DNA of 63,871 bases, filler included, from Kipferlia bialata (taxonomy: Eukaryota), in the NCBI GenBank assembly GCA_003568945.1. It is 6 parts of 6 records of this genome, joined end to end, with 100 filler letters (N's around TTAATTAATTAA, not from the genome) between each part and the next. Parts side by side here need not be neighbours in the genome. Positions count along the whole stretch, not along the records: positions 13,143 to 26,183 come from BDIP01000993.1; 5 more parts are not named here. One strand, given 5' to 3'. Position numbers and translations under genes: made by a program. Of the stretch, positions 47 to 58,350 are shown piece after piece. Below the pieces are notes generated by a model. The model saw nothing but the letters and a program-made list of their open reading frames with translations, was not told the DNA's origin and made no database searches. Positions within the stretch are counted from its first letter, which is position 1. Every line of letters starts with the position of its first letter.

Positions 47-1311
47 GCATGGATCTGTCCAACATGGAGATATGCCGCAAGTGTGATGCAGTGAGGCCGG
101 AGAGGGCCCACCACTGCTCCCTGTGCAACAAGTGCTACCTGAGGATGGACCACCACTGCCCGTGGGTATGTCACACACTATGTATGGTCTGACTATACTG
201 GTACAATGTGACTTATAGTGAAGAGAGGTCTTAGCCACACTCATATACACCTAATCATACACCCTCTGACCCTTGTAGGTTGCAAACTGCGTGGGTGTCA
301 ACAACTACGGGTACTTCTGGCTCTTCCTGCTCTGGGCATGCATAGGCACAGTCACCATGGGTGCGTGCTCCATACGTATACCTTATCTCTCCCTCTCTCT
401 CTCCATCTATACCCCCTCTGTCCTGTCTGACCCCAGGCTGTGGTATGATCCCCTATCTGTACAAGATGTTCACCACCAAGGGCTACGTGCCCCCAGTCTC
501 GGTGCTCGTGTCCATACCCATATCCATAGGGCTCAGCCTCGGCACAGCGTTCCTCCTCTTCGTCCACACATACCTCCTCGTTACCAACCAGGTACCCCGG
601 GACCATTACCCCTCAACCCTCCTGTGTTCTGTATAGTACTGTATATATACATGTGTGACCCTGACCCCAGACCACCATTGAGTTCTACCAGAACAGGTCT
701 GACCTCAATGAGGCTAAGAAGAGGGGGCAGACGTGGACAAACCCATACGACCTCGGGTGGGTGCCATGGTGTATCTGTATACTTACTCTGTCTCTCTCTC
801 CCTATCACTTACACCCTAGTCGCAAGGCCAACTTTGAAGAGATCATGGGTCCCGTCCACCCCCTCTTTGCCGTATTTGTTCCAGTACCCATCAGACCCCT
901 TTGTGATGGATTCAGCTACAGGCGCAAGGTTGGTGTGTCCTCTCTATCTCTACATGTCTCTCTCTCCCCCCTTTCCTTACTCACTATCAGACCCAGCCCC
1001 TGACCGTTCCCATGGGATGCGACATATTCCTGGAGGGGACTGATGTAGGGGGGAGGGGGGGAGAGAGTAAGCGGTCCCCCAGGGTAGGGGGTGGAGAGAG
1101 CGTGAGTGCTATTGGCCGTACTGATGCAGTGACCCAGGAGATGGATATGGACATGCCCTCTCTGCCTGGTACCCACTCTGCCAGGGGACCGTACGACTAT
1201 CCATCAGCTGGCCTTGCGGATATGTCCCTACCCGTTGTGTCCGGTATACCACACATACCACAGCCAGAGAGAGAGTCATATGGGGCCAGGAGGGCTAGGA
1301 AGGATGACTGA
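47..1311 (+). CDS. DHHC-type S-palmitoyltransferase, 5'-truncated, about 6 exons
   Basis: Exon 47-165 encodes [31 protein letters not shown] and the next exon [20 protein letters not shown] segments, a TTIEF motif and NPYDLG..NFEEIMG follow. Stop at 1309-1311. Confidence 0.95.
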
Positions 1312-1705: not shown

Positions 1706-3841
1706 TCACTCGGAGGGCTTCTGCCTCTGCCTCTCCTTCTCGGCTCTCTCTCTCTTCCACCGCTGGTTGCGGGCGGTGTTCTGTTCCCTCTCAGCACCGT
1801 GTACACCCCTGGTGGTCAGAGAGAGATGGGGAGAGGCTATAGGGCAATGGGGTCAGTATAGGAGTATGCATCCATCCCAATATATCCATCCCACCTGGAC
1901 CTGCTGGCTGCCCCGGCTGGGCCTGACCTTCCCTTGGCCCTGACAAACCTCACAGACACACCCTTGCACTGGATGGGTTCCTAGGGGGTGAGGCAGGGGG
2001 GGGGGGGTGATGGAAGAGAGAGAGGAGGGATGGTACCTTAGGGATGGCGGCCCAGACCTCTGCTGCATACTCGACCATGACGGTGTGGGTGGTGTCATCG
2101 TGCTGAAGGGTCAGACAGAGGAGGGGGGGGTATAGAGAAGGAGAGGGCCAAAGCTTGGAGAGAGAGAGAGAGGACAGTGGATACCCAGTACCCATAGCGT
2201 TCCCTACCTGCTGCATGCCCCTTGTGAATGAGTTGACCTCCCTGGCAGGCATCACCCTCTCCACCTGGCCGTACCTGCTGACAATGGCCTGCATGTCGTC
2301 CTGGGGGTGAGCGGGGGCAGAGGGAGTTATCTTTAGGAAAGGCAACACTATTAGTCACAAAGACGCAAATACACAATGAGGGTTTGAACGGAGTATACAT
2401 TCTAGAGTGTACATGTCTGCCGTACCATGCCGAGGTCTCCTGTCAGCTCAATGAAGCAACGGGTCTTGCCGCGGGCGGGCCTCTTCCTCTCCTCGGGGTT
2501 CCGCCTCTCTCTCTCTCCCTTTCCAGTAGCCCTGGGCTTAGGGGTTGCCTTGGACCTGTCGGCTCTGGGCTTGGCCTCCTTCTCTCTCCTAGGCTCTGCC
2601 TTGCCCTTGGCCTCCCTCTCTCTCCTGGGCCTCCTCTCCCTGGGCTCGGCCTTGGCCTTGGGGGCCTCCTCCTTAGCCTCCTTAGCCTCCTTAGCCTCCT
2701 TAGTCTCCTTGGCCTCCTTGGGCTCCACCTCAGCTACAGCCTCAGCAACAGCCTCAGTGGCCACTGGCTCAGGCTCGGCCTCCTTAGGGGCCTCATTCTC
2801 TGCCTCTGCCTCGGGAGCTGGGGTCTCAGCCTTGGCCTCGACCTCAGCCTCAGCCTTGGGTGCCTCAGCCACAGGCTCCTCCTCCTCCTCCTCCTTCTCC
2901 TCTACCACCTCCTCCACAGCCTCAGCAACCACAGCTGGGGTGGTCACAGGAGCACCGGGAACCTCCTCAAGTCTGGAATCAGAATAGGGTGGGGGGGGGA
3001 GTACCCTAACAGAGAGAGACGTATTACACTAATAGCTCACCTGAGGATGCTAGAGCGCACGATATAGGCTGTGAGAGGCTGACCCTTGGGGCCAACTGTC
3101 ACAATGTTATCTGAGGGTGAGCAAACTACATAGGATGGGGCCTCCAATACTCCTATCATATCACAGTGCGTACCAAGATGGAATGACTCCCAGAAAGTCT
3201 TTGTCTCCACATGGTGGGCAAATATGGACCCAGAACACATGATCAGGAGACCTGGGCTGAGACAACGCGATGAACACGGAAGAGACAACAGACCATGACC
3301 GGGACTGGCATACGCAGTAAAACACACACTCGGCCACATACGGGACAAACAAATGGCCCAAAGAACAACACAACAGCAGATAATAACATGGCCAAAGAGA
3401 AGTGACTCGGAACAGAGAATCTACACAATGATCACATACCTCCCTCATAGGCGCTACAATCAATGCTCTTGAGCTTGACATGGTCACCATAGGAAGTGAA
3501 CTCCGTCTTAATGAACTCGGCAACCTCCTCGGCTGTGTTGTACTGCTTGATGACCTCCCCTGCTGTCTGGGAAGAGTGGGTCACAGTGGTAGCAACCTTG
3601 TCATGATAGAAGATGATGCAGTGCTCAGGGTCGGTCAACAGCGTGGTGTAGTACTGAGTTAGAGCTGTGCAAAAGTGTACATCCCCCGCATACAATAAGG
3701 ACCTCCCTTCAGCGAGATAGAGGCTCGAAAAAGAGATCACCAACCAACACCGAACAATACAGACTGATAGAGGGCAAAATGCCTGTAAACTGGTTGTTAT
3801 ACCTCTGAGGCAAACTTGCAACCTAGTGAACGGCCGTTCAT
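1706..3841 (-). CDS. G3BP/Rasputin/Bre5-like protein (NTF2-like domain, acidic Glu/Ala linker, RRM)
   Basis: Spliced N-terminus MNGRSLGCKFASE|YYTTLLTDPEHCIIFYH...KLKSIDCS...IMCSGSI...KTFWESFHL resembles the G3BP NTF2 domain. An acidic/EAK-repeat exon lies at 2426-2975, then RRM-like exons (CFIELTGDL..DDMQAIVSRYGQVERV..VMVEY). Confidence 0.72.
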
Positions 3842-4053
3842 GTGCAGTAGTGGAGCAGTATGGTGAGAGACAGCTACTGTTGCTGTCTCCCGCCCTGAGC
3901 CATGAAAAACTCTCGAAAGAAAGGGTGTAGAGAGAGTATGCAACGTTGCCAACGTTGCAATTACTACGAATCGACGTTGCTTTGAAAGATAACAACCGTT
4001 GGGGAACTGATCTGTCAAACCTGGACACCAAGGCCTTCTTTGCACATAACAGG
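3842..4053. promoter_or_regulatory. Short divergent (probably bidirectional) promoter region between the G3BP-like and SCS-beta genes
   Basis: Head-to-head ATGs at 3841 (-) and 4054 (+), 212 bp apart. No specific element was identified. Confidence 0.45.
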
Positions 4054-6582
4054 ATGTCTCTCGCCCTTGTTGAGAAGTTTTCCGGTGTTCTCTCCTCCGT
4101 ACGTTTTTATTGTCCTATATTGTGTGGTTTCTGGGGACTTGAGTGAGTTCGAACACTTTCTTCAATTGTCAACAGGTTCAAGTCCCTATTTCCAGTCATT
4201 TACGAACATCCGGCTTACTCCAGGCCGCCAGGAGCCTCGTGATCCACGAGTACCAGGCTAAGGGCCTCCTTCGTGACCACGGAGTGAAGACCCTTCCCGG
4301 TGAGGTCTGCTGGACCCCCGAGGAGGTTGTTACCGTCTGCGAGGACCTCCACGCCAACCAGGGAGTCAACCGCTTTGTTGTCAAGTCCCAGATCCACGCT
4401 GGTGGCCGTGGAATCGGAACCTTCACTGATGGATTCCAGGTATGAATGTGTGTCACTCGTATGGAGATATGACAATCGGTTTCACTAGCTCTATACTCGT
4501 ATGCACTCACTGTTTATCGTACATAGCTTGAATGTATACGGCTATGTTCAATGTGCTTACTTGAAGTATAGTACACAGTTGTGTTTCCATTGATATGTGT
4601 GTCAGAGTTTGTCATCTCTCCCCTGTCGTCATCATTCTCCTCACTCTTGTGGTACAATGCATTTGGTTTATCTGTTCTGGATATGTGTTGATATGATACT
4701 GCTTTGCCTTTGCGTGACTCCCTGTTCTCACTGCAGGGTGGCGTCCACCTCTGTGACACCCCCATGGAGGCCAAGGAGCTGGCTGCCCACATGATCAACA
4801 ACACGTGAGTATCAGTCACTCTTCGCTACCCGGCCTTTCACACAATCATTATCCGTATGAATGTATCCATTTCCATTAGCTCTCCTCTCCTCTATCATCC
4901 CGACCCTCACACCAGCCTTGTGACCAAGCAGACCCCCCCTGAGGGCCGCCTTGTGAGGAGGGTGTTCATCGAGGGCGCCGCTGACATCGAGAGGGAGCTC
5001 TACTTCTCCATCCTCATGGACAGGAACTCCAGGGGACCCATGGTCGTGGCCTCCGTCTGCGGAGGTGGGTCGGCTGCTGTTGCCTAAGTGATACATTTAT
5101 GTGTATATTTGTTGTGCATTTGCAACTCTCCATGTGTTATTGGTGTCCATTCGCCCTAGAACTGCCAGTGATATTCCTTATGGTATTCCCATTCTATTCC
5201 CCTAACTGTATGAGCGTACGTGTATCATATATTCCTTGTGCCATCATCACCCACCCCCAGGTGTGGACATTGAGTCTGTGGCCCACGAGACCCCCGAGAT
5301 GATCATCACCATGCCCATCGACATCGACGAGGGCATGACCATCGAGCAGGCCGGAGAGCTCGCCAAGCAGCTCGGTGAGTGCCTGTGTTCAGAATTCCCC
5401 TCTCCCTCTCTGTATGCTTATCATGTCTGACCGTAGGATTCGACAGGCAGCCCCAGCAGGCCACCGAGCAGATCCTGGCTCTCTACGAGACCTTCAGGAG
5501 CACCGACGCCACCCAGGTATCAGTGTATGTTGGATATCGGACTGGTGGAGCTATACTACTCTGGTGCTTATACCGTTTGTGTCTGACGCCAGGTTGAGAT
5601 CAACCCCCTGGCCGAGCTCAAGGACGGGTCCGCCGCTTCCCTCGACGCCAAGCTGAACTTCGACGCTAACGCCGAGTTCAGGCAGGTACGGGGTTGTGTT
5701 ATATTGTATCATGTCATTCCCACTACCCCCTCCCCCCCCTTCTCCTTACTGCCGACCCACCCCAGGAGGAGGTCTTCGCCATGCGTGACATGGCCGAGGA
5801 GAACTGGAGGTAGGGGTGCATGGTATATATGTTGTGTGGCAGCGTGTCACATGTTGTGTCTGACGCCCAGGGAGATTGAGGCCACCAAGTTCGGCCTCAA
5901 CTACATCGGCCTCGACGGCAACGTGGGATGCCTTGTCAACGGCGCCGGTCTCGCCATGGCCACCCTCGACGTGCTCAAGGTGGGTATTATGCCCCTCTCT
6001 GCCAGGGGCAGTCTTGGTCGTTTTTCTCTCTTTCTTGTGTTCTGACCTCCAGCTCAACGGAGCCGAGCCCGCCAACTTCATGGACACTGCCGGTGCCATC
6101 ACCATCGACAAGGTATATACATACCATACATACATACATACATACATGCATATATACATACATATACATCACCATCGACAAGGTACTCCTCCACTCCTTC
6201 CTCACTCACTTCCACATTGCCATTACAACCCTTACCCTAGGTCTGCCAGGCCCTCGAGATCATCATGTCCGACGAGAACGTCGAGGTCCTCCTGATCAAC
6301 GTGTTCGGAGGTATCGTGTCCTGCAAGATCCTTGCCGAGGGCATCCTCAAGTTCAACGAGACCAAGGGCCTCAACATCCCCCTGGTCGTCAGGATGGAGG
6401 GCACCCACGTGGAGGCCGGAAAGGCACTCCTCGAGGCCTCCCCCATCGAGTACTACAAGGTACAGGGGCATTAGTAGAGTGTATATATATGCTGTATTGT
6501 GACAGTGTTGTTCTCCATCTCACCCCAGGCCGACAACCTCAAGGAGGCTTGCGAGAAGGCCGCCCAGCTCTCCAAGAAGTAA
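4054..6582 (+). CDS. sucC: Succinyl-CoA ligase (synthetase) beta subunit with a short N-terminal organellar leader
   Basis: Exons give [109 protein letters not shown] and [12 protein letters not shown] at 6580-6582. Confidence 0.97.
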
Positions 6583-6800: not shown

Positions 6801-8908
6801 TCAGATCTCGACAGTCTCTGCCGGTGGCTGGGAGGCAGACTTGAACCTCTGGCCCCTGTCTGTGTCGACCTCTCTCTCTCTCTCCCTGATGTCCCTCCTG
6901 TGACTGTGTGCGTGAGGGTGGGGGTGAGGGTGTGTCTCCTGGGTCTCCTGGGGAAGGTCGAGGCCCTGGGGTGAGAGTGTAAAGATAGACACACATCGAC
7001 ATACACACCAAAACCCTCCCCCACCTCCAGCTGCTCCATGCTGATGACTGGTGATATGACTGGGTTGACCACAATCTGCACGTTGATGGGCTGCACCCCC
7101 TGGGTACCCATCCCAGCACCCACTGCACCCACTGCAGAGGAGAAGATGGGGACAGAGGGGGGAGGCCTAGGGGTGAGAGTGGAAGATGGTCGTGTCAGTA
7201 TCAGTGCTGTACACTGGGCACATACCTGACAGGGATAGGGGGAGAGTGGGACTGGGCGTGTGTCTGGGTGTGGGAGAGAGGGTGGGAGCCAGTCTCCTTG
7301 GGGGCACCGGCTGGACCGGCAGTAGCAGGGGTGGGGGCCTAGTATTAGCACAACATATACACATAGTACACGATATATACCAGCTCACGACATCCTCTAC
7401 TCCACGACTCCGATAATGTGTGGTACCTGGGACTGTACGGGTGTCACTGTCTGGGTGACAGAGACTGTGGCGGGTAGGGAGGGGGGAGCGTGCTCAATGG
7501 GGGGGAACATCTCCTGGGGTCAGACGACACGATGGAGAGAGAGGGGGGGAGAGGGGGGGGGGGATCCGGTACCTGACGGGAAGGGGGCACAACGACTCCC
7601 ATGAGAGACGCAATCTCACGCTGCCTGGATGTCAGAATAACATGTACGGTGCTTACAGTAACCCATACACCCACACATACACACTCCTTCCCCACCTGGC
7701 CTCCTTGAACCTGTTGGACACCCTGAGGTACTTGTACCACCCGTCCCAGTGCCTCGGGATGAGGCCTGGGGGTAAGAGGAGGTGAGGGTAGGGATGGTTA
7801 CTACGCGAATACACGCATGTACGCACCGGCCTTCTGTGCGATGGACCTCTGCACCCTGTTGGCAAAGTCAATGGGGGTCTCATCCTCCTGGGGGTCAGTC
7901 ACTCTAGTGGTATATATATATATATACAGAGTGCATACTACACCATGACCCTATATCGGAAGTATACAGAATTCGCCTGTACCTGTATCCTTGTCCTGTC
8001 TATGAAGTGCACGTCCACCACCACAGCCCATCTGGTCATGATGTCGATGATGTGCATCAGGAAGGACTTCTTCCTGGGGGTTGGTTTAGTGTATATACAG
8101 TATGGTATATAGAACGGGCGATGTCTCACACTAGCACCCCACCTGCTGTTCCAGTAGCAGCACGAGCTGAACAGGTCGTTGTACTTGATGGCAATGGGGA
8201 CAACATCGGCCCCAAGCTCAAAGGCTCCCTGGGGTAAGGCAAGAGAACAAGGATGTATAGGCCCTACTCTGTACACAGTACCCAATCCTACCTTCTTGAA
8301 GAGCACGCAGTACTTGTTGTTGACACATGTACCCTCTGGGAATAGGAGGAGAGGCTGCTTGTCCTCCCCAAACACATGCTCTGTGATGCGCTTGCCCACC
8401 TAAGGGGTCAGACACACAGATTGGGGGAATGATACTGGAAGTGTAAAAGTACAATACTGATACCACGTACCAGCCCCCTCTCCCTCTTCTCCATCCTGTC
8501 GAACCACACTGGGTCGAGGCAGTCCAGGATGTTCTTCTGTATCCATCCAATCCAGCCCTGGGGTCAGAGAAGGTAGGTGGGGACACTGTATCATGTATAC
8601 ATGGTGAGATGTATACATGGTGAGATATGGGTCTATTCATGATCAGATGGGCAATAGTAACACTAACGACCCATACAAACCTTGTGGAGCTGTCCCACGA
8701 CTGACATAGGGGTGTAGCTGGAGAGGAGCAGCCAGTCGATCATGGAGGTGTGGTTGGCAACAAGCACCTGGGGGTCAGGGGCAGGGTGGGGGCTACTATA
8801 CTATGGCTATACACACTCGCACCTGCCCACTCTTCATCTCTGGCAGTGTGCCATGGAACTGGACCACTCCCATCCAGGACATGACCAGGACCTGGAGGTT
8901 AGGGTAAG

Positions 8909-13142: not shown

Positions 13143-13190
<48 letters not shown>

Positions 13191-13341
13191 GAGACTGTGT
13201 GCGTGGCTCTACCCTATGCAACAATACTTATGACACTGACACCCCATATGGTGTACCTCCATTAAGAATACACACATGTGACCCATCCTCATTGACAGAC
13301 ACATACATATATATACTATATGTATACACATATGCATCCAC

Positions 13342-13585
13342 TCACACTGTCCACTCTGAACTGCCCTCCTCTTGAGTTCTGGATGCACCTGTCCACCTGG
13401 GACACAACCTGATGGGTCAGTACCCACAGACTCATAGGAGCACACTGACACTGACACTGACACTGACACTGATGCCAACAATAATAATATATCGATGTGT
13501 ATACCTCTGGGTGCTCCTCCCCGTATCTTGCCCTGAATGCACTGAACTCAGCATCACCCCATGCCTTGCACCCCCGACTAGGCAT
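13342..13585 (-). CDS. Fragmentary exons of an unknown gene, truncated at the contig start
   Basis: MPSRGCKAWGDAEFSAFRARYGEEHPE|VVSQVDRCIQNSRGGQFRVD, with a GT..CTGACCCATCAG intron. No family recognised. Confidence 0.35.
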
Positions 13586-13948
13586 GCAGGGTAACAGGTG
13601 GGTGTATCGGCGTCACTGCCAGCCCTTGTGACTCAATGGAGGGGCAGATACATCGTAGTGAGCAGAAACACCGTTGGGAGAACGGTGCCCCTAATACAGT
13701 GACACTGTGTGGACCGCAACTTACAGTCTACATGTTGCTTTAGAGAGACTGTCCTTTCCACTGGTAGAAGGGTCTCGCTGGTGGAGTTATACGAATGGGT
13801 CACACCAAGCAACGTCTCAATCAGTAGTAAGCTCACTTCAACATGAGAAACAGGACCAACCCCTTGTTTTTGTCACTGTAGATTGTCACAGTTGACTCAC
13901 ACTGACGGGCCACCATGCCTCTCTACCGGTCTCCTGTGATTCTGCTAC

Positions 13949-16900
13949 ATGCCAGAGGAGCACTATGGCAGCTCTACACTGAGCGCCATGTGCCCCGGCA
14001 TCCCACCCGGCCTAGCAAGGGTAGTAGTGCCTGCAGTGATTGGATTGTGTGACGGTTCCAACACCGACCCCCAGCACCTAAGCCTCCGCCCTCTAGCACT
14101 CAGTGTGTCCCAACAACTTGACGGTCTGTCCTTAGGTGTCTCTGAGGTTCATGTGATGTCAGTGTTAGACCAGCACCTCTTCCTTGTGGGTCAGTGTCAG
14201 GGTGGGGGTGGCTGCCACTCTGACCTTGTCTCTGCCCTTCTCTCTGACCGTCCCTACACCCCTATAGCAGACTCGGGGGAGGACATCACCACCAGGTATC
14301 TCTCTGTCTGGACAAATACTGATTCCTTCTTACACAATGGTGACTCCCTAGTGGTGACACTCAGTAGTGTCGTCTACACGCATGCCCACATATATACTTG
14401 GTGACAGCAAGTTGGTGTACAATGTGTATACATACATATACATACATACCTGTATATACATACCTATATACATATACCTATTTATTAAAGTCGCACTCAC
14501 ACCCAGGTGTCAGGTGATACGAGTCCTCTGGCCATGCATCCAGGCCCTGCTGTCCTCTGTCTCTCGCCTGTGTCCGTCCCATACCAATGATGCATTGACC
14601 GATGCACCCGATGCATGCCTCAGATACCCCAGCGAGGGGGGGGCACACCACATGGCTCCTGAGGAGTACGGAGACACATGGGAGAGGGGAAGCCAGCCTG
14701 TCTGTCTCTACAATGAGGCCAACCGCACCCTCCACCTGGCGCGGCTAGCGGCGATATCCAGTCAACTACTCTCCATGACCCTGAGATACAACACGATGCA
14801 GATGCAGCCCAGGGCCATGTCGCTGGCTGCTGCCCTACAGGTATCCGAGACACTTCTCATTCAGCAGGACCTCTGCAGTGAGGACGGTGTGCAGTACCAG
14901 GAGGCCCTCCATGTCTGGACCCAGGCCACTGCCCCTGTCCTGTCATTGTTCATGAAGCAGGTATCGGGGTATGCATTGTACTATACCCTATACAGTATCT
15001 GGTGTTAATACTGGTCTCTACCCTGTACAGTATCTGGGTGTATACACAGCGTAGGCCGTGTATTCATTATGGCGTTGTACTAGTTTCACTAGGTATGAGG
15101 CAATATTCTATATATTAGAAACTTGCTTAATAATACTCACAATTCAACGTGATGATATGATTATTCTGTGATGGAATACATTCGTTTATAGCCGAATCCC
15201 TACCTGTCTAACAAGACCAGAGAGGGTCCCGATCCCACCCCATCAGGCCTCTCATGGTACTGCTTGGGGCTAGGGGTGTGGGAAAGACATGGCAAGCAGC
15301 TGCCTTCGCACTACAGACTGCAAGGGACAAGCACCTCGCCACCGTGCCCTACTACGTGTCCCTGCGCCACCCCTTGAGGGATACCCTCCTCTCATGCTTT
15401 GGGGTGTCTGAGCCTGGGGCACTGGCCAAGTGCATATGCAGCATGGCATCTAGGGGGAAGGGACTGCTACTGATCCTAGACGGTCTGCAGGAGGTTCAGG
15501 GGGAAGAGCAACGCCATGAGACAATATCGTGGGTCCTTCAGCTCTTAAAGGTGTGTTCTGTACATCGAGAGAGTCCTTATTATAGTGACACTGGATAATC
15601 TTATGTATTTACTCATTAGATCAATAGTTTTAAATGATGATTTGACGGTTATACTCTCTCACAGATTTTATCACAGATGTGGGCTTCTTACTTACCGGAT
15701 ACTACTCCTTTCTCATACCTTATCCCTTAGAGCGCCCCTCCCACCACTCGTGTACTCCTCACGTCCACCCGCGAGACGTGGCACGAGTGCATTGGTGCTG
15801 GTGTCTCCTTGTACAGACCCGTGGTGGAGGCCCTCACCTTCAGAGCATCTCCCTGTCAAGACGACCCTTCGACCACCACACTACCCCACATGTCCCGAAC
15901 AGAGATACAGGAAGGGCTGTCCCGCTACGGACTGCCTTGTGTGCTGACGTCCACTGTTACAGAACTGGGTGGCTCCCCTAGTCTCCTCGGGGTCCTGTCT
16001 CGACACATGTCAGGTGTGGACGCTATGCCCTCTGACACCACCTCCATGTCCCTGGCGGTGTTTGAGGGACTGGGCCTCACCCCAGAAGTGCTGTCGGAGT
16101 GTGTGTACCCTCTATTCAAGTGCCTGGGATACGGCACAGACGGCAGGGTATCGGATTGCGACCTGGTGGGGCTCAGGTCTCTGCCTGGGTGGAGTACCGT
16201 CACTAACTCGGGTCTACTATGCAGGGTGAGTGAGACTGTGCACACACTGAGGCACCAATACAGACCCTTTGCACAGGTACTTATGCACAACCTGGACGGG
16301 AAGACAGAGCACCGGCAAATGCTAGTCGCAGAGCTGCTCAAAACAGAGGTTACCTTTAACCAGAGGCTGTGGGAGTTAAGGCGAAGACTCACAGAACTCA
16401 GTCTTGGACTAAAGGGGGCCAGAAAGGAGACAGCGGAGCTAGGTCGCTACACTAGAAACCTCAACATCATACAGGAAGTGAGTGATGGCTTCATCAGAGA
16501 CCTGGAAGCGATGGGAGCTACTCCGGCCACGTTGGGTGATGTACTGAACAGCAACGCGGCATCTATCTGTATGTACAAGCCGTACATAGCCCAGCTAGCG
16601 GCATGCCACCGATACCTTGCAGGGAGGAGGGTGAGCAGGGCTCTGAAGGCAGTAAGGGTGGAGAGCGTGGGAGGAGACCCTGAACCATGGTAAGCCACCG
16701 TACGTACTGGATGATAACCACAGTTATGATATAGAGAAGCGCCGCTGTGTAACAGCAGCCTAAGATTGTAAGAGAATTATATGTCCATCGCCAACCGCAG
16801 GCCCACCTCAGCCCTTCTTGTTGAGCCAGCACAGCGCACCATGCGATACCACCTACTCGCCAGTGAGTACAGGAAGTGCCTCCCCCCTAACCACCATGAG

Positions 16901-17920
16901 ATAGTGTCTATGGACAAGGCAGTGTGTGTCCTATCACAAATGGCACAGGGGGTCAATGAGACGGAGCGCCAGGTGGATGGCAAGACGGGTCTGCGCACCC
17001 TCTGTCAGACACTCACAGGGCAAGGATCTAAAGAGCTGGCTGTGCTACTGCTGCAGCCTCACCGGACAGTGGTGGCTGAGATGGAAATGGAGGTAGATGT
17101 ATGTGTCATACCAAAGACAATATGACTCCATTTGTTCTGTCACCAAACCCATGCATTTCTGACTCAAGGTGGAGACTGGGATTCAAGGCACGGGTTCCAA
17201 CCTCCACAGGGTGTATCTCCTGAATGACATGGTATTGGTGATGGGTCCTGTGGATACCACAGAGGCACACACCTGTGTGGTCAGATCATCGCTAGGGGAA
17301 GTGGAGGTATTTGTCAATCCCAATGTATACAGGACTGCGCTTCAGTAATACTGAATCAGTATCCATCGTCGTGGAGACAAATCTCGTTGGAGTAGTTAGG
17401 TCTCCCTTATACTCTCAATTTGAGAGTATCAACGCTAGTACGACTGGAATTCTGCATTCCCCACCCCAGATAGAGATGGCGGGTCCTGGTGGTGCCCCGA
17501 CCCTGTTGAGGCTGAGGGTGTGTATAGCTTACTAAATAATATATAATATGTATGGGATTCCACCTTTAATCCACTTGGACATGTGTGCTACGAGGACATA
17601 ATGTCTATAACTTGCCGTTGTCTAATGAGTGGGAATAGATGTGGGTATATATCTCAAGGCACATCTCCCTCCATCCCCTTCCTGACCTAGGTATCAGGCC
17701 TCAGTCTCTCTACAGTCTCAGCCTATAGTGCTGGGGTATGGGCCCCAAGAGTCATGGCAGCTGTGGTAGGGCACACTATGTATGTATACTTATTATGTAT
17801 AACTGTATGTGAATATTATGACACTATTGGTTGGAACTGTCCCCATATAGCTTCGTTATGAAAGTGTATTGGTACTCTGACGCTAGACTGCCCAGCAGGA
17901 CCGTTAGGCTGGGGAGTTAA
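13949..17920 (+). CDS. NACHT/STAND-like P-loop NTPase fused to a Dbl-homology RhoGEF (DH) and a PH-like domain
   Basis: NTPase motifs: Walker A GARGVGKT (15266-15289), Walker B LLLILDGLQE (15464-15493), sensor-1-like RVLLTSTR and GxP-like ELGGSPSLL. DH motifs: HRQMLVAELLKTEVTF, YKPYIAQ and LLVEPAQRTMRYHLL..CLPPNH..MAQGVNE. PH-like HRVYLLNDMVLV. TAA at 17918-17920. Confidence 0.8.
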
Positions 17921-19364: not shown

Positions 19365-22300
19365 ATGGCAGTTGACTGCGAGGCAGAGGCAGAGGCAGAG
19401 ACAGCACTGCCACCCACCCTATCCACCCTGGGTAGGTGGGAGTGGCAGGACGTGCCTGGGGGGGAGTGGGCACCTGGGGCAGACATGGCTACTGTGGCCG
19501 TGGTCAGGTATGTGTGTGTATATACGTGTGCCTCCATCCATCCACTATTTGTACACACTTTCCCATTCACCTTCCAGGATTGAGCGTCGGGTGTACGTTG
19601 TGTATTCAGGTGGTATGTACTTCCGCTGCTTCGATCTTGACCTGCACCAGTGGGTACCAGAGCATGAGCTCTTGCAAACAGAATTCAATGACCACCCAGG
19701 TATCTTTATGTCGTGCCAGTGTCCTATCCTCTACCTATTCCCACGGTGTTCGCTGGATCAATTATTCATGCAAAACTATTCCTCACTCGGGTGTTAACTT
19801 ATGTCAGAGTATCGCGGGAAGCCTTGTGTGTTTGCTCTGAATGGGTCTCTCATTGTGACTGGCGGATACGGGTGCGTATTTATGACCACACTCCTAGCAG
19901 TCTCTCTCAATCTCACATTATCCTCTCAACTGGGATCCCTGGCAGAATGCACACATCCAACTAATCCAACTAATCCAACTAACTAATCCTCAGTGCAAGG
20001 GTCTCCAGCTCTCTGACCAAGATTATGGCGTACGATCCATCTCTGAGGTTTGTCTCATGCAATGTTTCTGATTGTATTTGCTAGAAGTATTCTGATACAT
20101 GTATACTTTGCGCTGACCTTAAGACGCTGGGCGATTGTGGGAGAGACCCCCTACTCTGTGCTGGATCCATCAGTGTGTGTCCAGGGCACAAAGGCATATC
20201 TATATGGGGGGAAGTTCCACATTACTCGGGCCATGGGCCGCAGCACCTACCTTACCCTCTCTGTCATTGGTGGGTCAGCAGTGTGTTCAGTGGGGGACCT
20301 GCCAAAGGTGAGGGTTGATGCCTGGAATGGTGTGTTGGTACTATTGATGTCATCTTCGGCATGGATATAGATATGTATATATATATATATATATACCTAT
20401 ATATAGTATATATATTCCTATATTCAACTGGTCCCATGTGTTTGCCCATGTGTGCCCACTTACTCCCTAGGTGATGTGCGTCTCTGAGCCCTGTCCGTGC
20501 CTGGACCTGGGCGAATGGGCCCTCATCATGAGAGAGTCTGTGTGTGTCAGGTACCCTTTGGGTGCTGCGCCAGAGTGGGTGGAGTATCCAAAGGTGGACG
20601 AAGGGTATGTGGGCCGTCCCACTGTACTTGCACATCACGTATGTCGACTGAGTGCCGGTGTCTGGGTGAACATTGAGTCCATGGCCAACGGTAGGGTGGA
20701 TACACCTATCGAGCTGCACTACATCGCCCCTAGCCTTGCTGGAGCCCAGATTAGTGTAGCCGCGCTGGCTCCCAGACTACAATGCTCAGTGGCAGACGTC
20801 GTAGAAGACGTTGTACGGTTGTCTGTTTGTCTGGTATGTGGTTTGGCAGTTACTGTGTTTTTTTGTATGCTCAGGTACACTCAATCCATCTCACCCCAGT
20901 ATCCCCCTACTGATCTCTTCTTCCCTCTCCTTGCTGTTGCCTTCCGAGTTGCCGTTCTCAACGATACAGACGCCACGTCAGCATTCACCAGGACCCTGCG
21001 GTCTCTCCCAAAGCCCCTTCCAGACCGGTCTGAGACCTCTGGGTCCAAGCCTCTTTTCGACTCAGTCATATCCTTCCTTCTGCAGCTTCTGTCCTCTCCT
21101 GAAGTCACTGGGTGCACCGGTACCATTCCTGTAAACCCAATCGAGACTGTAGTCCTTGCTCTCTCTCTGGGCTCGTGTGCCATCGAGCCTATCACTCACC
21201 GGCTGTGCTTCCAGGTAGACAATATCTGAGGACCATAATACACCCATAATGCTGGTACACTACAATAACAACAAGCTACTGAGGCGTTACTCTAATAGTC
21301 AAATAATAATAGGGAATGCTAGTCATGATGACCATCTTTAGACGACGGAGTGCACACGCCATACAGTGCTGTGTAGCATTCCTGGACACCCTATCAGAGA
21401 CTGCTATGGGGGACTTGTTCCAATCCATGGCCAGCGACGTTTTGGGTGAGGACACGTAATTCTTTCCTATACTTGGGGTATATGGAGGTATATACTAATC
21501 CCAGTCTTCGAGGACAGGGGTCGTAGGAGTATCTTAGCGTCAATGGAGGGTGAGAACCCTCTGCACGAGAACCATCTAGGGAGGGCAGGCGGTCTCTCCC
21601 ATGCATTCTCCTGCCTCACCATCCTGCAGTTCGGGCGTCAGGCTGATGGCACCTACCCGGAGTGGATGGGTCCCATCAAGGTCTCTCTAGACAAGGAGAG
21701 AGAGAAGGACCCTCTGGGAGTTCTTGCTGCTACTGCCGCCTTCAATGCAGGTCCAGTTGGTTTCACCCCTCCTAATGCGGTATTGGACGAACTGAAGCGT
21801 ACAGTGGGCCCCTGTGGTTGGGAGAACCCAGCCCACATGATGCAGTGTCTGGTTGGGATGACTCTCGACCACCCTAGGTACCTTGGGGTATGGCAACAGA
21901 TGGCTGCTAGAGTGACGAAAGACTGTTCCATACGGGCGGTGGATATCTCTGCATACCTGGTAGAGCCTGACCGCATGTCTGATGTTCTCAGTGTCCTCTA
22001 CGCTGCCCCTTCCATCCCCTCCCTCACCCTGCACCCTGAGACGCCTTCCCACGTCGGGGCATTCCTTCGTAGGGCGGCCCTTTGTCCTTCACAGGTCAAG
22101 CAGTGGCCACACCCGGCACCATATTCGTTCATGGGTACCCCCATACTGACACACCCTCCTGGGGTTGTATCTGTAGGGCCACCGATAGTGTCCCTGACCG
22201 AGTTAGACCACTTCGGCCTTGATAGGGTGATGTGTCTATCCAGCTGTGCTCTAGGGGATGGGAGATGTCTGGTGATGGCCCAACCCCGTCTCGAGACTTC

Positions 22301-23656
22301 CCAGTATGATCCCGACACTAGCATGCCCTGTGAGTGGTACACAATACAGGAGGAGGACACAGAGAGTGATGAGGACGAGGATATGTTCCACCCTGGCTTT
22401 GCCCATGTCAGAGTCGATAAGGTGGAGAACGGGCCACCGCTTGCCCACGTGCAGGGATGCAACATGTGGATGAATGGAGGATCGATGTTTGTACTTCTAC
22501 ATATGGCAGAGATGACACGCCCCCAGCCGTTAGAGATCATGCACACCCCTTGTGAGGAGTGGCACCAGCTATACCGAGTAGACACCGACACGATGCAGTG
22601 GACCCTCATTCCGGACCCCTCGCACCCCCCATACATAGATCTGGGCTACTGCGGATCTAGGGGTCTCAGTGTGGATGGCAAGTTGGTACTGTATCTCGCT
22701 GATGGTATTCAGGGGGGTGTCCATCGCGCAGGCCTCTCCGCTGTCAATGACAAGCCCGACAGTGCCACCCTTGTGTTCGATCCAGAGGCAGTGGCCTGGG
22801 TACAGGTGGAAAAGGCCCCCATGATCGTGGGGCGCTTCATCCAATGCGAGTGCAAGGCGCAGGAGAAAGTGTACTTCAGGGGAAACCCGATGCATAGGAT
22901 ACACGAGCAGGGCCCCTCGTCCTTCCAGTCAGCAGACGCATATGGCAAGATCACCTCCCTGGGGGACACCCTACCCATCACACACGTCACTGCTCACCCA
23001 GGGATACTATGTGTAGACAACACCATATACATGGCCACCCCTGGAAAGCCCGGTGTGTAATGTGGATATACTGTACCTTACAGTTCATATGTGTTGACCC
23101 GTACGGCTCTACTTTGACTTGCCTTTGTGCATACCTACATTCACTGGCTAAGAAGTAGGTTCTCGTTACTGACCCGCTAGCTCTTGCACTAGACACAGTG
23201 ACTGGGGTATACACCACATGTGGCACGATGCCCCCAGAGTCTGACGCAGCTACTCGGGAATTCTATGGGTGGGGATAGATGAACAGTCACATATTGCACC
23301 TGAAAGATACAAATAGTATTCACCATTAACGGACAACTCACACTCAGATATAAGACTCTCCAGATTGGCGAGGGATTGGCTCTACTCTACAATAATGAAG
23401 AGGGTATGTACTGGCGTATGTAACCGGCGTATATATGATATATACAGACATACTATGTATGTCTCACTGCCCCACTCTTTTGGCCTGCTTCCTTGCCTTC
23501 GTTGTGAGTCTGGCCCCAGTCTGGATGAAGTTACACAGATAGTGAATTGCTACCTACTCTCGTTCTTCATTGTTTCTCCCCCCAGAGGCCTCTCAGTACC
23601 TCATGAGGGTGGACATGGAGGCACACAGGGACAGGGAGGATGAGGTGTTCGAGTGA
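19365..23656 (+). CDS. Kelch-like beta-propeller protein(s), one long gene or two adjacent genes
   Basis: Kelch-type blades: GSLIVTGGY, IMAYDP..RWAIVGETP..AYLYGG, LYRVDTDTMQWTLIP, LSVDGKLVLY, LVFDPEAVAWVQVEKAP. Long ORFs at 20471-21229 and 21543-23060. Terminal exon ends with TGA at 23654-23656. Confidence 0.55.
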
Positions 23657-24007: not shown

Positions 24008-26183
24008 CTAGACGGGCACCTGGGAGACCACCCTGTCTAGGTTGGAGTCCTCCTGCTCGGCAGCCCTCTTGCGGATCTCAGCCTCGATCTAAGGGTAAGG
24101 CAGGGTTGTGGAAAACATATGAGATGGTGGTTGTGTAGTGTCCACTACTAGAATCTAGTCTAGATATCTACAACTCTTATGAATGGGGTTGTGGTATATA
24201 CAATCCTCCTCTTGTACCTGGTGTCTCTCGAGTGGCACCTGGGGCACGATGGTGCAGATGATGCCGATGACTGGGTAGATGAGGGCAATGACCCACGACA
24301 CGTGGTTGTCCCAGTCGAAGATGTACCCCTGCACAAGCATGAAGACACTGCGGCCGAGGGAGTTGCCGATCTGGGTGAGGGGAGTAGAATACTAAAGGCA
24401 AGAATGAACTGGAAAGATAGAGAGCAGATAGAGCACAGAGAATATATGCAATACAGTCCACTGACCTGGAAGAGTCCGAGCATCATGCCTCTGTCCTCGG
24501 GAGATGACCACTCGGAGCAGAAGTGCAGGAAGGAGGGGTGGGCAAGGCCGTCCTGGATACCATTGAGCACGCAGCAGAAGGTGTAGATGTAGTAGTTGAA
24601 TACCCCGTCAGGGTCAGTGGCGCAGTACCCGATGGCAAAGACGGAGCAGGCCTGGCCGATGTGGATGACCTGCAGTGAGGGATGAAGAAACCAATATGCA
24701 ATAGGACTGTGAGACCACATACCATCTTCTCTCCAAACTTCTTGGAGAGGGGTCCCACAATGACAGAGCCCAGGACTCCGGCAGCGTTGAAGAGAAGGAC
24801 AGTCCAGGAGTAGAGGTACTGGGGTGAGAGGAGGTCGATCGACTGTATAGCTTCTGATGACATGTGTTCTCTACTCACCCCGGCATCATCGCTGTCCAGC
24901 CCACAGTGGTTGTTGACAATGCCTCCAGCCATGCCCTGGAAGAACGAGTGGGAGCCGAGAGTGACTGGGGTGAGTACTGGTAGAGTATTGAAGATTAGAC
25001 CGTGCCTCAAAGAGAGAGTGGGGATACATGCAAGGGGTGTGAGAACTAGCAACGTACATGTGTATCCGATGAACATGATCATGAGGTTCTTGTTCTTCCT
25101 GATGACCTTGATGGTGGAAACAAAGCCGGACTCCTTGGGGGCGCTGGGGTGGGTGGTGGGAAGAGGTGCACAGTCCGTTCCAAGTAGGGAGAGCTCATTT
25201 ATATATACAGACAGTGTCATCACTCTCCATACCTGTTTACATCCAGGGACAGAGAGTCGGCCTCAGTTCGGGCAATGCGGCTGGGGGTGAGGGATTAATA
25301 GACCAGTACTGATAGACTACTAGTGATATACTGCTATTGACTGACGCACATGGGGGCAGACTCTCTGAGGAAGAAGAGTGAGACCATGGCACCCATGAAG
25401 GAGAAGAAGGCTCCCAGGAACATGAGCTGCTAAGAGGTTAGGAGCAGAGTTCATGTGGAATAGATACTTGTAATATAGGTGAGGTACATCAGTCTTGCGT
25501 ACTGTGATACAGAGACTACTACCCACCTTCCACTCCCAGCCCATCTTGCCCAGGATCATGTTGAGGATGATACCTGCAAAGCAGCCAACCCAGCAGGCAC
25601 CGTTGAGGTAGGCGAGGGCCTGGGTGTGAGCGGTGAGGCATGATAGAAGGTGAAGACTGTGATTAATGTGTCTATATCTCTATATATACGTGTACCCCCA
25701 CCTTGGCCGTCTGCCTCATGGGAGTTACAACAGTGTATATATATCCAGGGATACATATATATATACTACATGCATGTAATTACCTTGGCCCTCTGCCTCA
25801 TGGGGGTGATATCGGCACAGATGGTGTTGCCGAGGGGGGCGTACTGGGGTGAGGGCAGTGTGGGACAGACATAGGTATAAGTATCTAAGTATACTGAATG
25901 CAACGTACAATGGCTCCGACACCGGAGAGTGCCCTGAAGAACAGGATGCCCCCGTAGGAGGTGGACAGAGCAAAGCCGACAAAGCACCCTGCATAGTTGA
26001 GGGAGATGATGACCATTGAGGGCTTGCGGCCAATCTTGTCACTGATCCTGGGGTGAGGGGGAATACTGAGTGTATACATACATATATGTGTATATAGTAC
26101 AACTGACTAAAACAGACAGCATATACCTGTGCCAGATGGGGGAGGAGAAGAGCTGCACGATGTTGAAGATGGCGAGGGCGTTG
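24008..26183 (-). CDS. Major facilitator superfamily transporter, 5'-truncated
   Basis: Motif A-like ISDKIGRKP, FFRALSGVGA, ADITPMRQRAK, GPLSKKFGEK and EDRGMMLGLFQ, with multiple TM exons. Last exon ...RVVSQVPV*. Confidence 0.92.
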
Positions 26184-55349: not shown

Positions 55350-57908
55350 TCAGATCTGGTAGTTGATGTTGACCAGGTACTGGGTGACGGCGTCCATGAT
55401 GTGCTGCGCCTCCCAGTACATATCGTGGGACAGACCACACCTCAGCACCCCGAGGTTCCTCTGGAAGCTAGTCGACGCCTCGAGCAGCTCAGGGGAGGTG
55501 GGGCCCCTCAGCATCATAACCACGGGGGTGATCTTGGCACCGACGGAGACGGCGCCGGCGAGGTAGAATGCATAGTTCTGCATAGTGAACTCATCTAGGT
55601 ACACAGCATCCCCCTCGGGAGGTGGGAGGCGGATGCGGCAGCTTGTGAGGCCGTCCTTCCGGAACTCAATGGCCGGCTCCGTCATGGGCTCCTGGGGCTG
55701 GGCGCCGAGGGTGAGGTTGGGGGAGGGGGGCTGGGCGTTGAGGAAGCAGTGCACCACCTTCATCCCGGCCTCGTTGCACATGGTACGAACCATGGGTAGG
55801 ATGTGGGGGTAGTTCTCGAAGATGCGGTCCTCCTCGTGCTGGATCAGCAACATCCAGGGCTCGGAGTGTTCCACGAGGGACATGAGCGCAGAGAGGACGG
55901 GGCTCTCCTCCTCCTCGCAGGCCTCGGACTCAGAGGACTCTGTCTCGGACGTCTCCTCCTGGCTATCCTCATGGCTGTCCTCTGACTCATCACACCCCTC
56001 GGAGTCGGAGTCCCCACTGACCTCGGTCAGGTTGGAGAGAGCTCTCTCTCTGCCCTTGGAGGTAGCGTCCTCGGTCTCTCCCTCGGGACTGAGACTGGCG
56101 GGACGCTTGGGGGATCTCGCTGAGACCTTGGGGGAGCGCTGACGGGAAGCCTTCCTGGCAGCCCTGATGTTCTTCTGCCAGTCCCCCCCGGTGTATCTCC
56201 TGGCCGACTCTTTGACAAGCTCTGTGAAGAGACGCAGCGAGGCGGCCTCCTCGGCATCCCTGTTGGTGCTGAAGATGGAGCTGACCCTCTCGAAGACTGA
56301 GTGTGAGCCTGGTTTCGTGATGATGAGCAATACACTTGAATACAATATGTCTAGAAGATGATGATACATACGTGTACTCACCCTGCTGCCAGAGACACAC
56401 CCTGATGACGCAGAAGAAGCCGTTGTCCCTCTGGCCGTGCCTGACCTTGACGACAGACATGGACCGCATGTCGATGGCAGTCTCGTCCCTGGCACAGATC
56501 TTGGCGACCAGGGCATTGACCCTCTCCCGGTGGTTCACCAGAGGAGGGGGGGGACGCACACCCAGCGGAGGACTGACCTTGCGGGTCCTAGCGGCCTCGA
56601 GGTCCCTCAGGGTCTGGAGTCCTCGGATGGCAGCACTGTGGCTAGCAGCCTAGGGTGAGAGACAATGAAATACCAGCCGATGAGGCACTAGTGCATGTAG
56701 ACCAACTATGCAGACCAACGCCCCCCACCTTCTTGGTGGGCTTGAGGTCCCCGGTGGCGGATAGGTCCTTGGGCTGGCCGCCATGTGGCTTGGGGTTTTG
56801 GAAGGAGACCACTGCCTATGGATCAGAGGACAGGAATGAAGGAGAGAGATATGTACAGAGAGAGACACTGCCCAACCCACCAGGAAGAGGTTGCCGCGTG
56901 TCTGGAAGTCATAGACGGGAGGGGGGAGGCCTGCCTGCTGTATTATCTCCTGGGGTGGGCAAACAACACATACATCCACATATTAAATAGAAATGAGGCT
57001 GAGGATTCCTATATCACTGAACGAATAAAAGATACGTGGGGATATCAACTGACCTGCAGCTGGTTCTTGGGGTGGACTGAGGGCTTCATGCGTGATGCAG
57101 GATGCCCGTCCCCCATCCCCTGACCTGAGGACGTCGATGAAGGCGTTGGTGAGGGCGATGTCGTCATTGGTATCATAGGTGGACCATGGGGGGACATGCG
57201 GAAGTGCGGCGGGTACTCGGGTGGGGGTGCCTGCATAGGGACCGGCATGCCGCCGTGGAACTGACCATACATAGGCCCATACTCGCCTCCCTGGGGAGGT
57301 GGGTGCATGGGTGCATACTGAGGCCTGCCCTGCGGTGGGCCCATACCCATACCCATACCCATGCCGGGCATGGGATAGCCCATCCTGGGCGGCACATTCC
57401 CATACATGCCAACGGGGACGCCCGGTCTCGGGTAGGGCATATGGAAACCAGGCTGAGTTAGAAGATATTCTATGAACATGATGTAGATACACTCTATCCA
57501 TACCTGTGGGTAGGCCCCCGGTCCACAATCCCCGAACTGTCTCCGGGGAGGTGGAACCTCTCTTGCAAACTGACGGGGGTCGTAGGAGGGTCCAGGTGAT
57601 CCACTTGACGATACACTGCGGCGTTGGCCGGTCAGCTGTTGGTTCATCTGGTGGGCTGCACTCTTCTCGGCCTCTCTCTTTGTTGGCATGCGGAGTCCCC
57701 GCGCTGACACAACGCGGGTAGCGGAAGAACCCTGCCGGGATTGGCAGACATTGTCATGACCACCAGAGACTTCAACGGGAAGGGACACTGAGACTGTGGA
57801 TACGAAATATCCAGAATCTACGTTGTGGGTGGCGTACTTGGGTAAAGGAAGGTGCCGTGATTGCACGTACTCCTGAAGCGTGTTCTTAGCAAGAGCGGAA
57901 GGATCCAT
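55350..57908 (-). CDS. Protein with three dsRNA-binding domains, a Pro/Met/Gly-rich linker, an acidic linker and an unassigned C-terminal alpha/beta domain
   Basis: dsRBD1 AKNTLQEYVQSRHLPLPKY..FVSTV..TKREAEKSAA. dsRBD2 HPKNQLQ|EIIQQAGLPPPVY..F..PTKK|AASHSAAIRGL. Divergent dsRBD3 NHRERVNAL..FFCVIRV..STNRDAEEAASLRL. Confidence 0.85.
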
Positions 57909-58350
57909 AGGAACTGGTCCTGAGACAATGGAACTCTCAGAAGAGGAAGACGTTGTCGGTGCACTGGTATTAAGCTAACAGTTTAAAAGCTAAATAAGTT
58001 AGGAGTGTGCAATTTGGTCAAAAATCACATTTTGTCCAATTGAATCTGTGGACGAATAGGCCCATGGAGGAATGATATAAGTACTTCTCCTTACCATAGG
58101 ACTCAGCATGCCCCGAAAGGTCAGCGAAACCATTATCTTACCGGCATAATGAAGTGTATATCCTACAATGGTCTTGCCGTTATACTATAACTTATAGTTT
58201 AATCTTCAACTTGAACCCTTATATATATGCCAAAAATAGTGGCTCTCTCAATACTGACAACGAAGTGTCACGACTGTCCTGTTTTCGAACATTAGGAGCT
58301 TCTTTCGTTTGTTGACTGCCCCACAGTGTGGGTTTTGTTGACTACTCGAA

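What the first reader, a model, noticed from the sequence alone, without database searches (positions are those of the whole stretch)
13949..17920. NACHT/STAND NTPase fused to a DH-PH RhoGEF
Seen: Walker A, a NACHT-type Walker B (DGLQE in place of DGLDE), sensor-1-like LLTSTR and a GxP-like motif are followed by DH motifs. Sensor-1, GxP and the DH start share one long exon (~15731-16690), so the fusion is not a product of exon joining. Established: STAND NTPases are ligand-gated switches in NLR-type immunity, and DH-PH modules activate Rho/Rac GTPases. Inference: an NLR-like switch wired directly to actin or phagocytosis control, with the GEF in the C-terminal position normally held by sensor repeats. 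I know of no characterised protein with this architecture.
Basis: partly seen in the sequence, partly recalled or inferred. Interest (0 to 1): 0.75.

Follow-up and report, generated by a model that had tools for sequence, protein, structure and literature searches.

The report
Asgard-type NLR fused to Rho activator
A protist gene joins an NLR-type immune-receptor core, whose closest relatives found are in Asgard archaea and which was likely acquired from them, directly to a domain predicted to switch on Rho/Rac GTPases, so an archaeal-type surveillance scaffold may have been rewired to control the cytoskeleton.

Summary
The fusion is real. It is one nine-exon gene for an 887-aa protein (database name: Kipferlia bialata KIPB_004599): helical N-terminus, NACHT-type STAND module (NBD-HD1-WHD), then DH-PH. 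NACHT and RhoGEF pass Pfam cut-offs, the modelled STAND part matches NLR structures, and spliced contigs join five introns and link the winged helix to DH-PH. The gene is one of at least 14 Kipferlia paralogs sharing this STAND module; the others end in LRR, ARM or MORN repeats, four in DH-PH. Every named outside relative is an Asgard archaeal protein (NACHT-LRR or NACHT-HEAT). Trees nest Kipferlia among them, apart from the Heimdall/Hodarchaeales copies, favouring transfer over inheritance. This copy keeps all key GEF residues but departs from the family at sensor-1 (Arg to Thr), Walker B (DGLQE) and the N-terminal hydrophobic hairpin. Best reading (0.42): a likely active Rho GEF on a weakly switching NLR scaffold; close rival (0.33): an integrated sensor or decoy guarding Rho signalling. 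No function is tested. Ten literature searches found no description.

The parts
13949..14295 (+). Exon 1 (aa 1-116): start of the helical N-terminal domain; holds the degenerate version of the family's Gly/Ala-rich hydrophobic hairpin
   Evidence: boundaries; family alignment, hydropathy; helical, mostly pLDDT >70
14507..14960 (+). Exon 2 (aa 116-267): coiled-coil helices and the conserved pre-NACHT segment
15221..15550 (+). Exon 3 (aa 268-377): NACHT nucleotide-binding domain, first part
   Evidence: Pfam NACHT 30.7 bits on this frame; both flanking introns joined in X1
15266..15289 (+). Walker A GARGVGKT (aa 283-290), intact
   Evidence: sequence; K and T conserved in 60 of 60 other rows (loci rows were found by a Walker A pattern)
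15464..15493 (+). Walker B LLLILDGLQE (aa 349-358); second acid replaced by Gln357
15731..16689 (+). Exon 4 (aa 378-697): sensor-1, HD1, winged helix and first two thirds of DH in one reading frame
15755..15772 (+). Sensor-1 LLTSTR; Thr390 at the family's Arg column, Arg391 one place on
15887..16024 (+). HD1 helical domain (about aa 430-475) with conserved Pro460
16037..16294 (+). Winged-helix domain (about aa 480-565)
   Evidence: model pLDDT about 85-94; structural matches run to aa 560-571
16313..16978 (+). DH (Dbl homology) domain, about aa 572-756, split by the intron 16690-16800; conserved E578, T582, E583, P706, Q708, R709, R712, Y713, L716, N749, E750
16801..17092 (+). Exon 5: end of DH, start of PH
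17169..17306 (+). Exon 6: PH strands
17470..17517 (+). Exon 7: PH
17691..17779 (+). Exon 8: PH end; donor at 17766 or 17780 unresolved
   Evidence: not covered by the stretch laid
17887..17920 (+). Exon 9 and stop (17907 or 17920 by the donor used)
   Evidence: not covered by the stretch laid

Best explanation
The gene encodes a DH-PH module, predicted to be an active Rho/Rac exchange factor, fused behind an NLR-type STAND scaffold that likely came from Asgard archaea and likely binds nucleotide but switches weakly; the scaffold would hold the GEF folded back or dispersed until clustering, probably with a repeat-bearing paralog or on a membrane, releases it to load Rac with GTP. Shown: single spliced gene, domain order, paralog family with exchanged C-terminal modules, nearest relatives in Asgard archaea, intact DH residues, altered sensor-1, Walker B and N-terminal hairpin. 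Inferred: direction of transfer, GEF activity, nucleotide binding, weak hydrolysis or ATP sensing, regulation of the GEF by the scaffold, any partner, any role in immunity or feeding.
For: DH keeps 11 of 11 listed signature residues that are 77-100% conserved in 60 other DH rows, while P0002 lost N749/E750 and P0004 most of them; best PDB sequence match is the Rac GEF P-Rex1 (E 5e-5). The two parts that give ordinary family members their own output are altered here: sensor-1 Arg (60 of 60 others, 10 of 13 Kipferlia) and second Walker B acid (60 of 60, 9 of 13), and the N-terminal hairpin is the least hydrophobic of 12 compared (35-residue maximum 0.81; P0002 1.04; ten others 1.09-1.68). Walker A and the Mg-binding Asp are intact and the full NBD-HD1-WHD fold is kept, so the scaffold is not decaying. 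DH starts within about 7 residues of the WHD end. The family has put signalling domains in this slot before: P0075 NACHT-kinase, which lacks the N-terminal hairpin region, and P0079 NACHT-FHA.
Against: DH-PH sits where paralogs carry LRR (4), ARM (3) or MORN (2) sensors, and in NLRs that slot senses. The residues that mark an active GEF also bind the GTPase, so a sensor would keep them too. Arg391 may stand in for the sensor-1 Arg, and Glu358 is kept, so the switch may work. Two ARM paralogs also changed the second Walker B acid, so that change is not tied to DH. No Rho/Rac gene of this organism could be checked (no genome held). Only 3 of 15 Asgard loci had a PADLOC-matching neighbour, so an immune role of the parent family is not shown.
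Confidence: 0.42

Rival explanations
1. Sensor NLR with an integrated domain: DH-PH binds Rho/Rac (or bacterial or viral proteins that target it) as a guard or decoy, and signals by nucleating paralogs that keep the switch and the membrane-active N-terminal hairpin.
For: DH-PH replaces repeat sensors in a family of at least 14 paralogs. One capture event: the STAND modules of P0001/P0002/P0004 form a clade (99/97) and the three scorable DH domains form a clade (100). P0004 has canonical DGFDE and TCR motifs but a dead DH, the pattern of a decoy; P0002 lost the catalytic Asn. Loss of own effector and switch residues is typical of sensor NLRs in pairs (recalled).
Against: P0001 and the last DH of P0003 keep every catalytic residue. 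No helper partner or cell-death output is shown, and the hairpin matches no named pore-former (best lead JukB, E 0.057).
Confidence: 0.33
2. An ordinary Dbl-family GEF that picked up a STAND module as a passive localisation or oligomerisation tag; nucleotide state does not control it.
For: Switch residues altered in both P0001 and P0002; long branches for these two (0.7-0.8 plus a 0.74 stem); earlier scan notes list many unrelated RhoGEF fusions in protists (unchecked).
Against: Walker A, Mg-binding Asp, Glu358, HD1 Pro and WHD Gly are kept in P0001 and P0002, which are only about 41% identical over the module.
Confidence: 0.2
3. Gene-model or assembly artefact: two genes, or archaeal contaminant DNA, joined in silico.
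For: No single transcript contig spans NBD to DH; only one run holds the stretch and it may come from the same source. P0003/P0004 are partial models with odd repeated parts.
Against: WHD and DH share one stop-free exon and one contig; contigs overlap by 26 bases at similar depth (8.0, 7.1); spliceosomal introns interrupt the NACHT itself; paralog P0002 on another contig has the same order.
Confidence: 0.03

Closest known systems
Asgard archaeal NACHT-LRR / NACHT-HEAT proteins (e.g. MDO8083447.1 Ca. Sigynarchaeum springense; MHA1450705.1 Ca. Hodarchaeales; the copy in Promethearchaeum syntrophicum MK-D1, locus L021)
   Same: Same N-terminal hairpin plus coiled coil, same NACHT-HD1-WHD module, alignable over about 550 aa.
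   Different: They end in HEAT (10 of 22 scanned), LRR (9 of 22) or nothing detected (3 of 22), never RhoGEF, and keep DGhDE/E and the sensor-1 Arg. None is characterised to my knowledge.
NACHT-type NLRs (NAIP/NLRC4, NLRP3, NOD2) and bacterial NACHT proteins (Kibby et al., bioRxiv 10.1101/2022.07.19.500537)
   Same: NBD-HD1-WHD fold (NAIP 8fvu_B Z 15.2, rmsd 4.2, 311 aligned); tripartite N-terminal domain / NACHT / C-terminal module.
   Different: No HD2 or repeat sensor; DH-PH follows the WHD directly; D[GAS]hDE signature is DGLQE; RhoGEF is not among the domains listed in that paper's Figure 2 legend (Table S1 not seen).
Dbl-family DH-PH RhoGEFs (P-Rex1, Vav, FGD, intersectin)
   Same: DH-PH tandem with conserved catalytic residues.
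   Different: Accessory region is a STAND module; the survey of 175 genomes (PMC5499878) has no mention of NACHT, NB-ARC or P-loop in its main text and reports no Dbl proteins in diplomonads.
Plant NLRs with integrated domains and NAIP-type sensor NLRs (recalled)
   Same: A host signalling domain placed in the sensor region; degenerate copies among paralogs.
   Different: NACHT of archaeal kinship, single-celled host, no paired helper shown.
Archaeal stand-alone STAND ATPases (PDB 2qen, 2fna)
   Same: Top structural match (2qen Z 16.5, rmsd 4.2, 280 aligned), tied or nearly tied with NLRs.
   Different: They lack the N- and C-terminal modules; Walker B of this family is NACHT-type.

Membership tests
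STAND NTPase | P-loop NBD followed by helical domain (HD1, GxP-type Pro) and winged helix | tested here: met
   Model from 37-row alignment, pLDDT mostly 80-97 over aa 230-565; Z 15-16.5 to 2qen, NAIP, plant NLRs over aa 213-571; Pro460 in 13 of 13 and 57 of 60 rows
NACHT clade | Pfam PF05729 above gathering score | tested here: met
   36.4 bits against 26.7; several Asgard relatives score nSTAND_NTPase5 higher than NACHT
NACHT clade | D[GAS]hDE Walker B signature (Kibby et al.) | tested here: not met
   DGLQE in this protein; the family has DGhDE in 57 of 60 outside rows and 9 of 13 Kipferlia rows, so it is a derived member of a family that meets it
NACHT clade | Sensor-1 arginine (hhhT[CS]R; motif recalled) | tested here: inconclusive
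   Thr at the Arg column, Arg one residue later
NLR (strict) | C-terminal superstructure-forming repeat sensor | tested here: not met
   DH-PH follows the WHD; no repeat family hit. Paralogs P0006, P0009, P0011, P0067 do meet it
NLR (strict) | N-terminal effector of known type (TIR, CARD, PYD, CC/MADA, HeLo, enzyme) | tested here: inconclusive
   Helical hairpin plus coiled coil; only generic coiled-coil or weak hits; not folded alone
NLR (strict) | Ligand-triggered ADP/ATP exchange and oligomerisation | not testable with these tools
   needs biochemistry
Dbl-family RhoGEF | DH domain with conserved CR1 Glu, CR3 QR..Y and C-terminal Asn-Glu | tested here: met
   PF00621 49.3 bits against 27.6; residues kept
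Dbl-family RhoGEF | PH domain directly after DH | tested here: met
   local profile 32.7 bits against at most 2.1 in 500 shuffles (training rows were found with this query); Atlas structure neighbours are DH-PH proteins, all under the service's naming bar; no Pfam PH hit
Dbl-family RhoGEF | Nucleotide exchange on a Rho-family GTPase | not testable with these tools
   needs assay
Asgard-type NACHT family (this report) | Groups inside the Asgard sequences in a tree of the STAND core | tested here: met
   Kipferlia clade 100/98, joined to 10 Asgard/metagenome rows 100/98; archaeal rows as one clade without Kipferlia rejected, p-AU 0.012 (long outgroups)

The most novel reading that the evidence does not exclude
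A free-living metamonad took an NLR-like receptor from a Loki-type Asgard archaeon long after eukaryotes arose, expanded it into its own intracellular surveillance family (LRR, ARM, MORN sensors), and grafted a eukaryotic Rho GEF into the sensor slot, producing both decoy copies (intact switch, dead GEF) and output copies (live GEF, altered switch): an archaeal-derived NLR network that guards and drives Rac signalling in a single cell.
Probability: 0.33. Interest if true: 0.87.

Novelty: new variant of a known kind. Interest (0 to 1): 0.72.

Why it matters
Eukaryotic NACHT proteins are usually traced to bacteria (Kibby et al., passages read); a link to Asgard archaea was only hinted at (PMC11291487). 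Here a whole NLR-like family in one protist sits inside an Asgard family that already has NACHT-LRR form, including a copy in the cultured archaeon MK-D1, which makes the origin testable. The DH-PH members would be a direct join between a STAND switch and Rho GTPase control, and the mix of live and dead GEF copies lets one test how integrated domains become sensors or outputs outside plants.

Tried and rejected
Single-sequence fold: pLDDT 39, unusable. Mixed STAND plus DH alignments A3 (inspected) and A5 (judged by its summary) were misaligned and not used; so DH-PH is poorly modelled in the good model (pLDDT mostly under 60) and the STAND-DH contact is untested; the complex predictor was not available. 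Word-index homolog searches returned only the protein itself although 13 paralogs exist, so they are no evidence of absence. Exact-peptide scan of metagenomes with P0001: 0 of 76 candidates. No listed run is on record as RNA; X2 and X3 gave no cover. Atlas feature hits were all under 0.9. PADLOC and NCBIfam gave nothing for P0001. IstB, Roc and AAA readings of the P-loop: below cut-off and without the HD1-WHD match. Viral origin: 1 of 33 candidates, 42 residues only; BFVD matches generic. Bacterial origin: best plasmid matches 46-50 bits, on very long branches outside the group. Vertical descent through the Heimdall/Hodarchaeales copies: rejected, p-AU 0.0066, though paralogy among Asgard copies weakens this test. 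Defence-island context of Asgard copies: 3 of 15 loci (74 of 84 frames scanned), not convincing. Sec6-like reading of the long tails of P0002/P0004 is a recalled motif only; Pfam and PDB sequence searches gave no support. N-terminal domain: no named fold.
Full report
Observation. The window is a chain of contigs of an intron-rich eukaryote; the gene lies on a 13,041-base contig (N linkers; contig length). No whole genome was held. A search with the long exon returned one protein, P0001, 887 aa, named by its sources as Kipferlia bialata KIPB_004599, UniRef 'DH domain-containing protein', with precomputed PF00621 and PF05729. So the two-domain call already exists as machine annotation. P0001 maps onto nine exons from 13949 to 17907. 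Pfam gives NACHT at aa 278-398 (36.4 bits, cut-off 26.7) and RhoGEF at aa 576-749 (49.3, cut-off 27.6). The PH domain has no Pfam hit but scores 32.7 bits on a profile from 97 non-Kipferlia post-DH segments, against at most 2.1 for 500 shuffles.

The family. A phmmer search of 1.84 billion representatives gave 134 rows including the query. 23 hits match the NACHT region. With P0001 and the partial P0003 this makes 14 named Kipferlia proteins. Their C-terminal modules differ: LRR in 4, ARM in 3, MORN in 2, none detected in 1, DH-PH in 4. Among all 135 stored proteins only these four hold both STAND and DH. P0002 and P0004 add a long helical tail; P0003 and P0004 are adjacent partial models on one contig. 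One search used one divergent query, so other eukaryotic members may have been missed.

Origin. A Walker A pattern from the family alignment, scanned over 185,579 prokaryote genomes, matched 42 stretches; 22 were confirmed, 21 titled as Asgard lineages (including Promethearchaeum syntrophicum MK-D1) and 1 as 'uncultured archaeon'. The pattern came from the hits themselves, so it favours them. A profile search found the family in 35 of 400 genomes of that phylum at E up to 1e-20. Of 22 archaeal-type proteins scanned, 10 end in HEAT and 9 in LRR repeats, 3 in nothing detected, none in RhoGEF. They share the N-terminal domain: a basic amphipathic helix, a Gly/Ala-rich hydrophobic hairpin and a coiled coil. 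In a 42-row tree of the STAND core (36 of the 78 extracted rows left out: near-copies, partial rows, two paralogs and the distant rows; five loci and proteins were dropped earlier as too short), 11 Kipferlia rows form a clade (100/98) that joins 10 rows including Sigynarchaeum and MK-D1 (100/98), apart from the Heimdall/Hodarchaeales rows. Forcing Kipferlia with those three rows is rejected (p-AU 0.0066); forcing 24 archaeal and metagenomic rows together without Kipferlia is rejected too (p-AU 0.012). With four bacterial outgroups the Kipferlia-plus-8 group has 89/97, but the outgroups are very long and not one clade, and several rows have skewed composition. Transfer from a Loki-type archaeon followed by expansion and intron gain is the best inference; inheritance of one Asgard paralog with wide loss is not excluded.

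Structure. With a 37-row alignment the model is confident over most of aa 10-565 and poor over DH-PH, where the alignment held unrelated tails. Foldseek ranks plant resistosomes, CED-4 and NLRP3 first; the wide aligner gives 2qen Z 16.5, BrxC 15.3, WRR4A 15.2, NAIP 15.2. NBD-HD1-WHD is therefore present and DH begins at once after it. The N-terminal domain matched no named fold and was not folded alone.

State of the parts. In 73 aligned rows, the sensor-1 column holds Arg in 60 of 60 non-Kipferlia and 10 of 13 Kipferlia rows; P0001 and P0002 have Thr (P0001 has Arg one place on). The second Walker B acid is Asp or Glu in 60 of 60 and Asp in 9 of 13; P0001 and P0002 have Gln, two ARM paralogs His. 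Walker A Lys-Thr, the first Asp and the Glu are intact in P0001. The hairpin of P0001 is the least hydrophobic of 12 compared. The DH of P0001 keeps E578, T582, E583, P706, Q708, R709, R712, Y713, L716, N749 and E750, each 77-100% conserved in 60 other DH rows; it departs at some structural positions (F618, P711). P0002 lacks N749/E750, and P0004, whose switch motifs are canonical, has a degenerate DH. STAND modules and DH domains of the DH-bearing copies are each one clade, so the GEF was captured once and the copies then diverged in complementary ways.

Mechanism. Established knowledge: STAND proteins oligomerise on ADP/ATP exchange, the sensor-1 Arg reads the gamma-phosphate, and DH-PH catalyses exchange on Rho GTPases (recalled, apart from the tripartite layout and signature read). 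For this copy the only intact catalytic output is the GEF, so I favour a GEF restrained and clustered by a weakly switching STAND scaffold (0.42). The sensor or decoy reading is nearly as strong (0.33) because DH-PH occupies the variable slot and P0004 looks like a decoy. A passive tag (0.2) and an artefact (0.03) follow. An immune role is inferred from architecture only: neighbours matched PADLOC in 3 of 15 Asgard loci (74 of 84 frames scanned), and the window's own neighbours are unrelated genes on short contigs (114 of 189 frames scanned).

Literature. Ten searches listed no paper on a NACHT-RhoGEF protein or on this family. Read: PMC5499878 (passages, section 14; no NACHT; no Dbl proteins in diplomonads; supplements not seen); bioRxiv 10.1101/2022.07.19.500537 (passages, section 6; Table S1 not seen and may list these sequences); PMC11291487 (passages; says some eukaryotic NACHT groups appear to share ancestry with Asgard proteins; 8 supplements searched, one of them cut, Kipferlia only under viperin and pAgo; one PDF unreadable); bioRxiv 10.64898/2026.10.28.762692 (passages; one NACHT-ankyrin cluster, no Kipferlia); PMC13581612, PMC5874029, PMC10853773, PMC7145615 and 10.64898/2026.04.11.717937 (passages only, nothing on this). 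Leipe et al. 2004 was not read. Subscription papers are largely outside the library.

Verdict. Real, expressed as spliced contigs in one run, lineage-restricted as far as searched, and a new variant of two known kinds (NLR-like STAND receptor; Dbl GEF). The Asgard kinship raises the interest above the fusion alone; lack of any functional test and of a profile search over eukaryotes holds it at 0.72.

Noticed in passing
L021:3830-7105 (and L013, L015, L016, L018, L020, L022, L023): Asgard archaea, including cultured P. syntrophicum MK-D1, encode hairpin/coil-NACHT-LRR proteins with textbook NLR layout; Thorarchaeota copies end in HEAT repeats.
   Followed up: partly
P0002 aa ~950-1521; P0004 aa ~940-1748: Long helical tails after PH; one motif recalls exocyst Sec6 (recalled, unsupported); PH of P0002 weakly matches PH_EXO84 (E 6e-4).
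   Followed up: partly
P0003 and P0004 (KIPB_003296, KIPB_003295): Adjacent partial models with near-identical starts; P0003 lacks the NBD and ends in a second, intact DH-PH preceded by a WHD-like end: tandem copies or a merged model.
   Followed up: partly
P0075, P0079: Unnamed members on Asgard branches with a C-terminal protein kinase or FHA domain in place of repeats.
   Followed up: no
P0067: Database name 'RNA polymerase I associated factor A49-like' hides a NACHT-LRR; likely a merged gene model.
   Followed up: no
window 13150-13590, minus strand: A divergent gene seems to start about 360 bases upstream of the ATG at 13949 and runs off the contig; no Pfam hit.
   Followed up: no
window 21450-23057 (+), 24163-25262 (-), 57048-57974 (-), 279-1040 (+), 3435-4106 (-), 7941-8399 (-): Other genes: weak Kelch-like, MFS sugar transporter, dsRNA-binding motif, DHHC, NTF2, acyltransferase; no link to this gene seen.
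   Followed up: no
L009:633-5041: Njordarchaeum copy lies beside PADLOC matches to PDC-S01, a kinase-like protein and a diadenylate cyclase.
   Followed up: no
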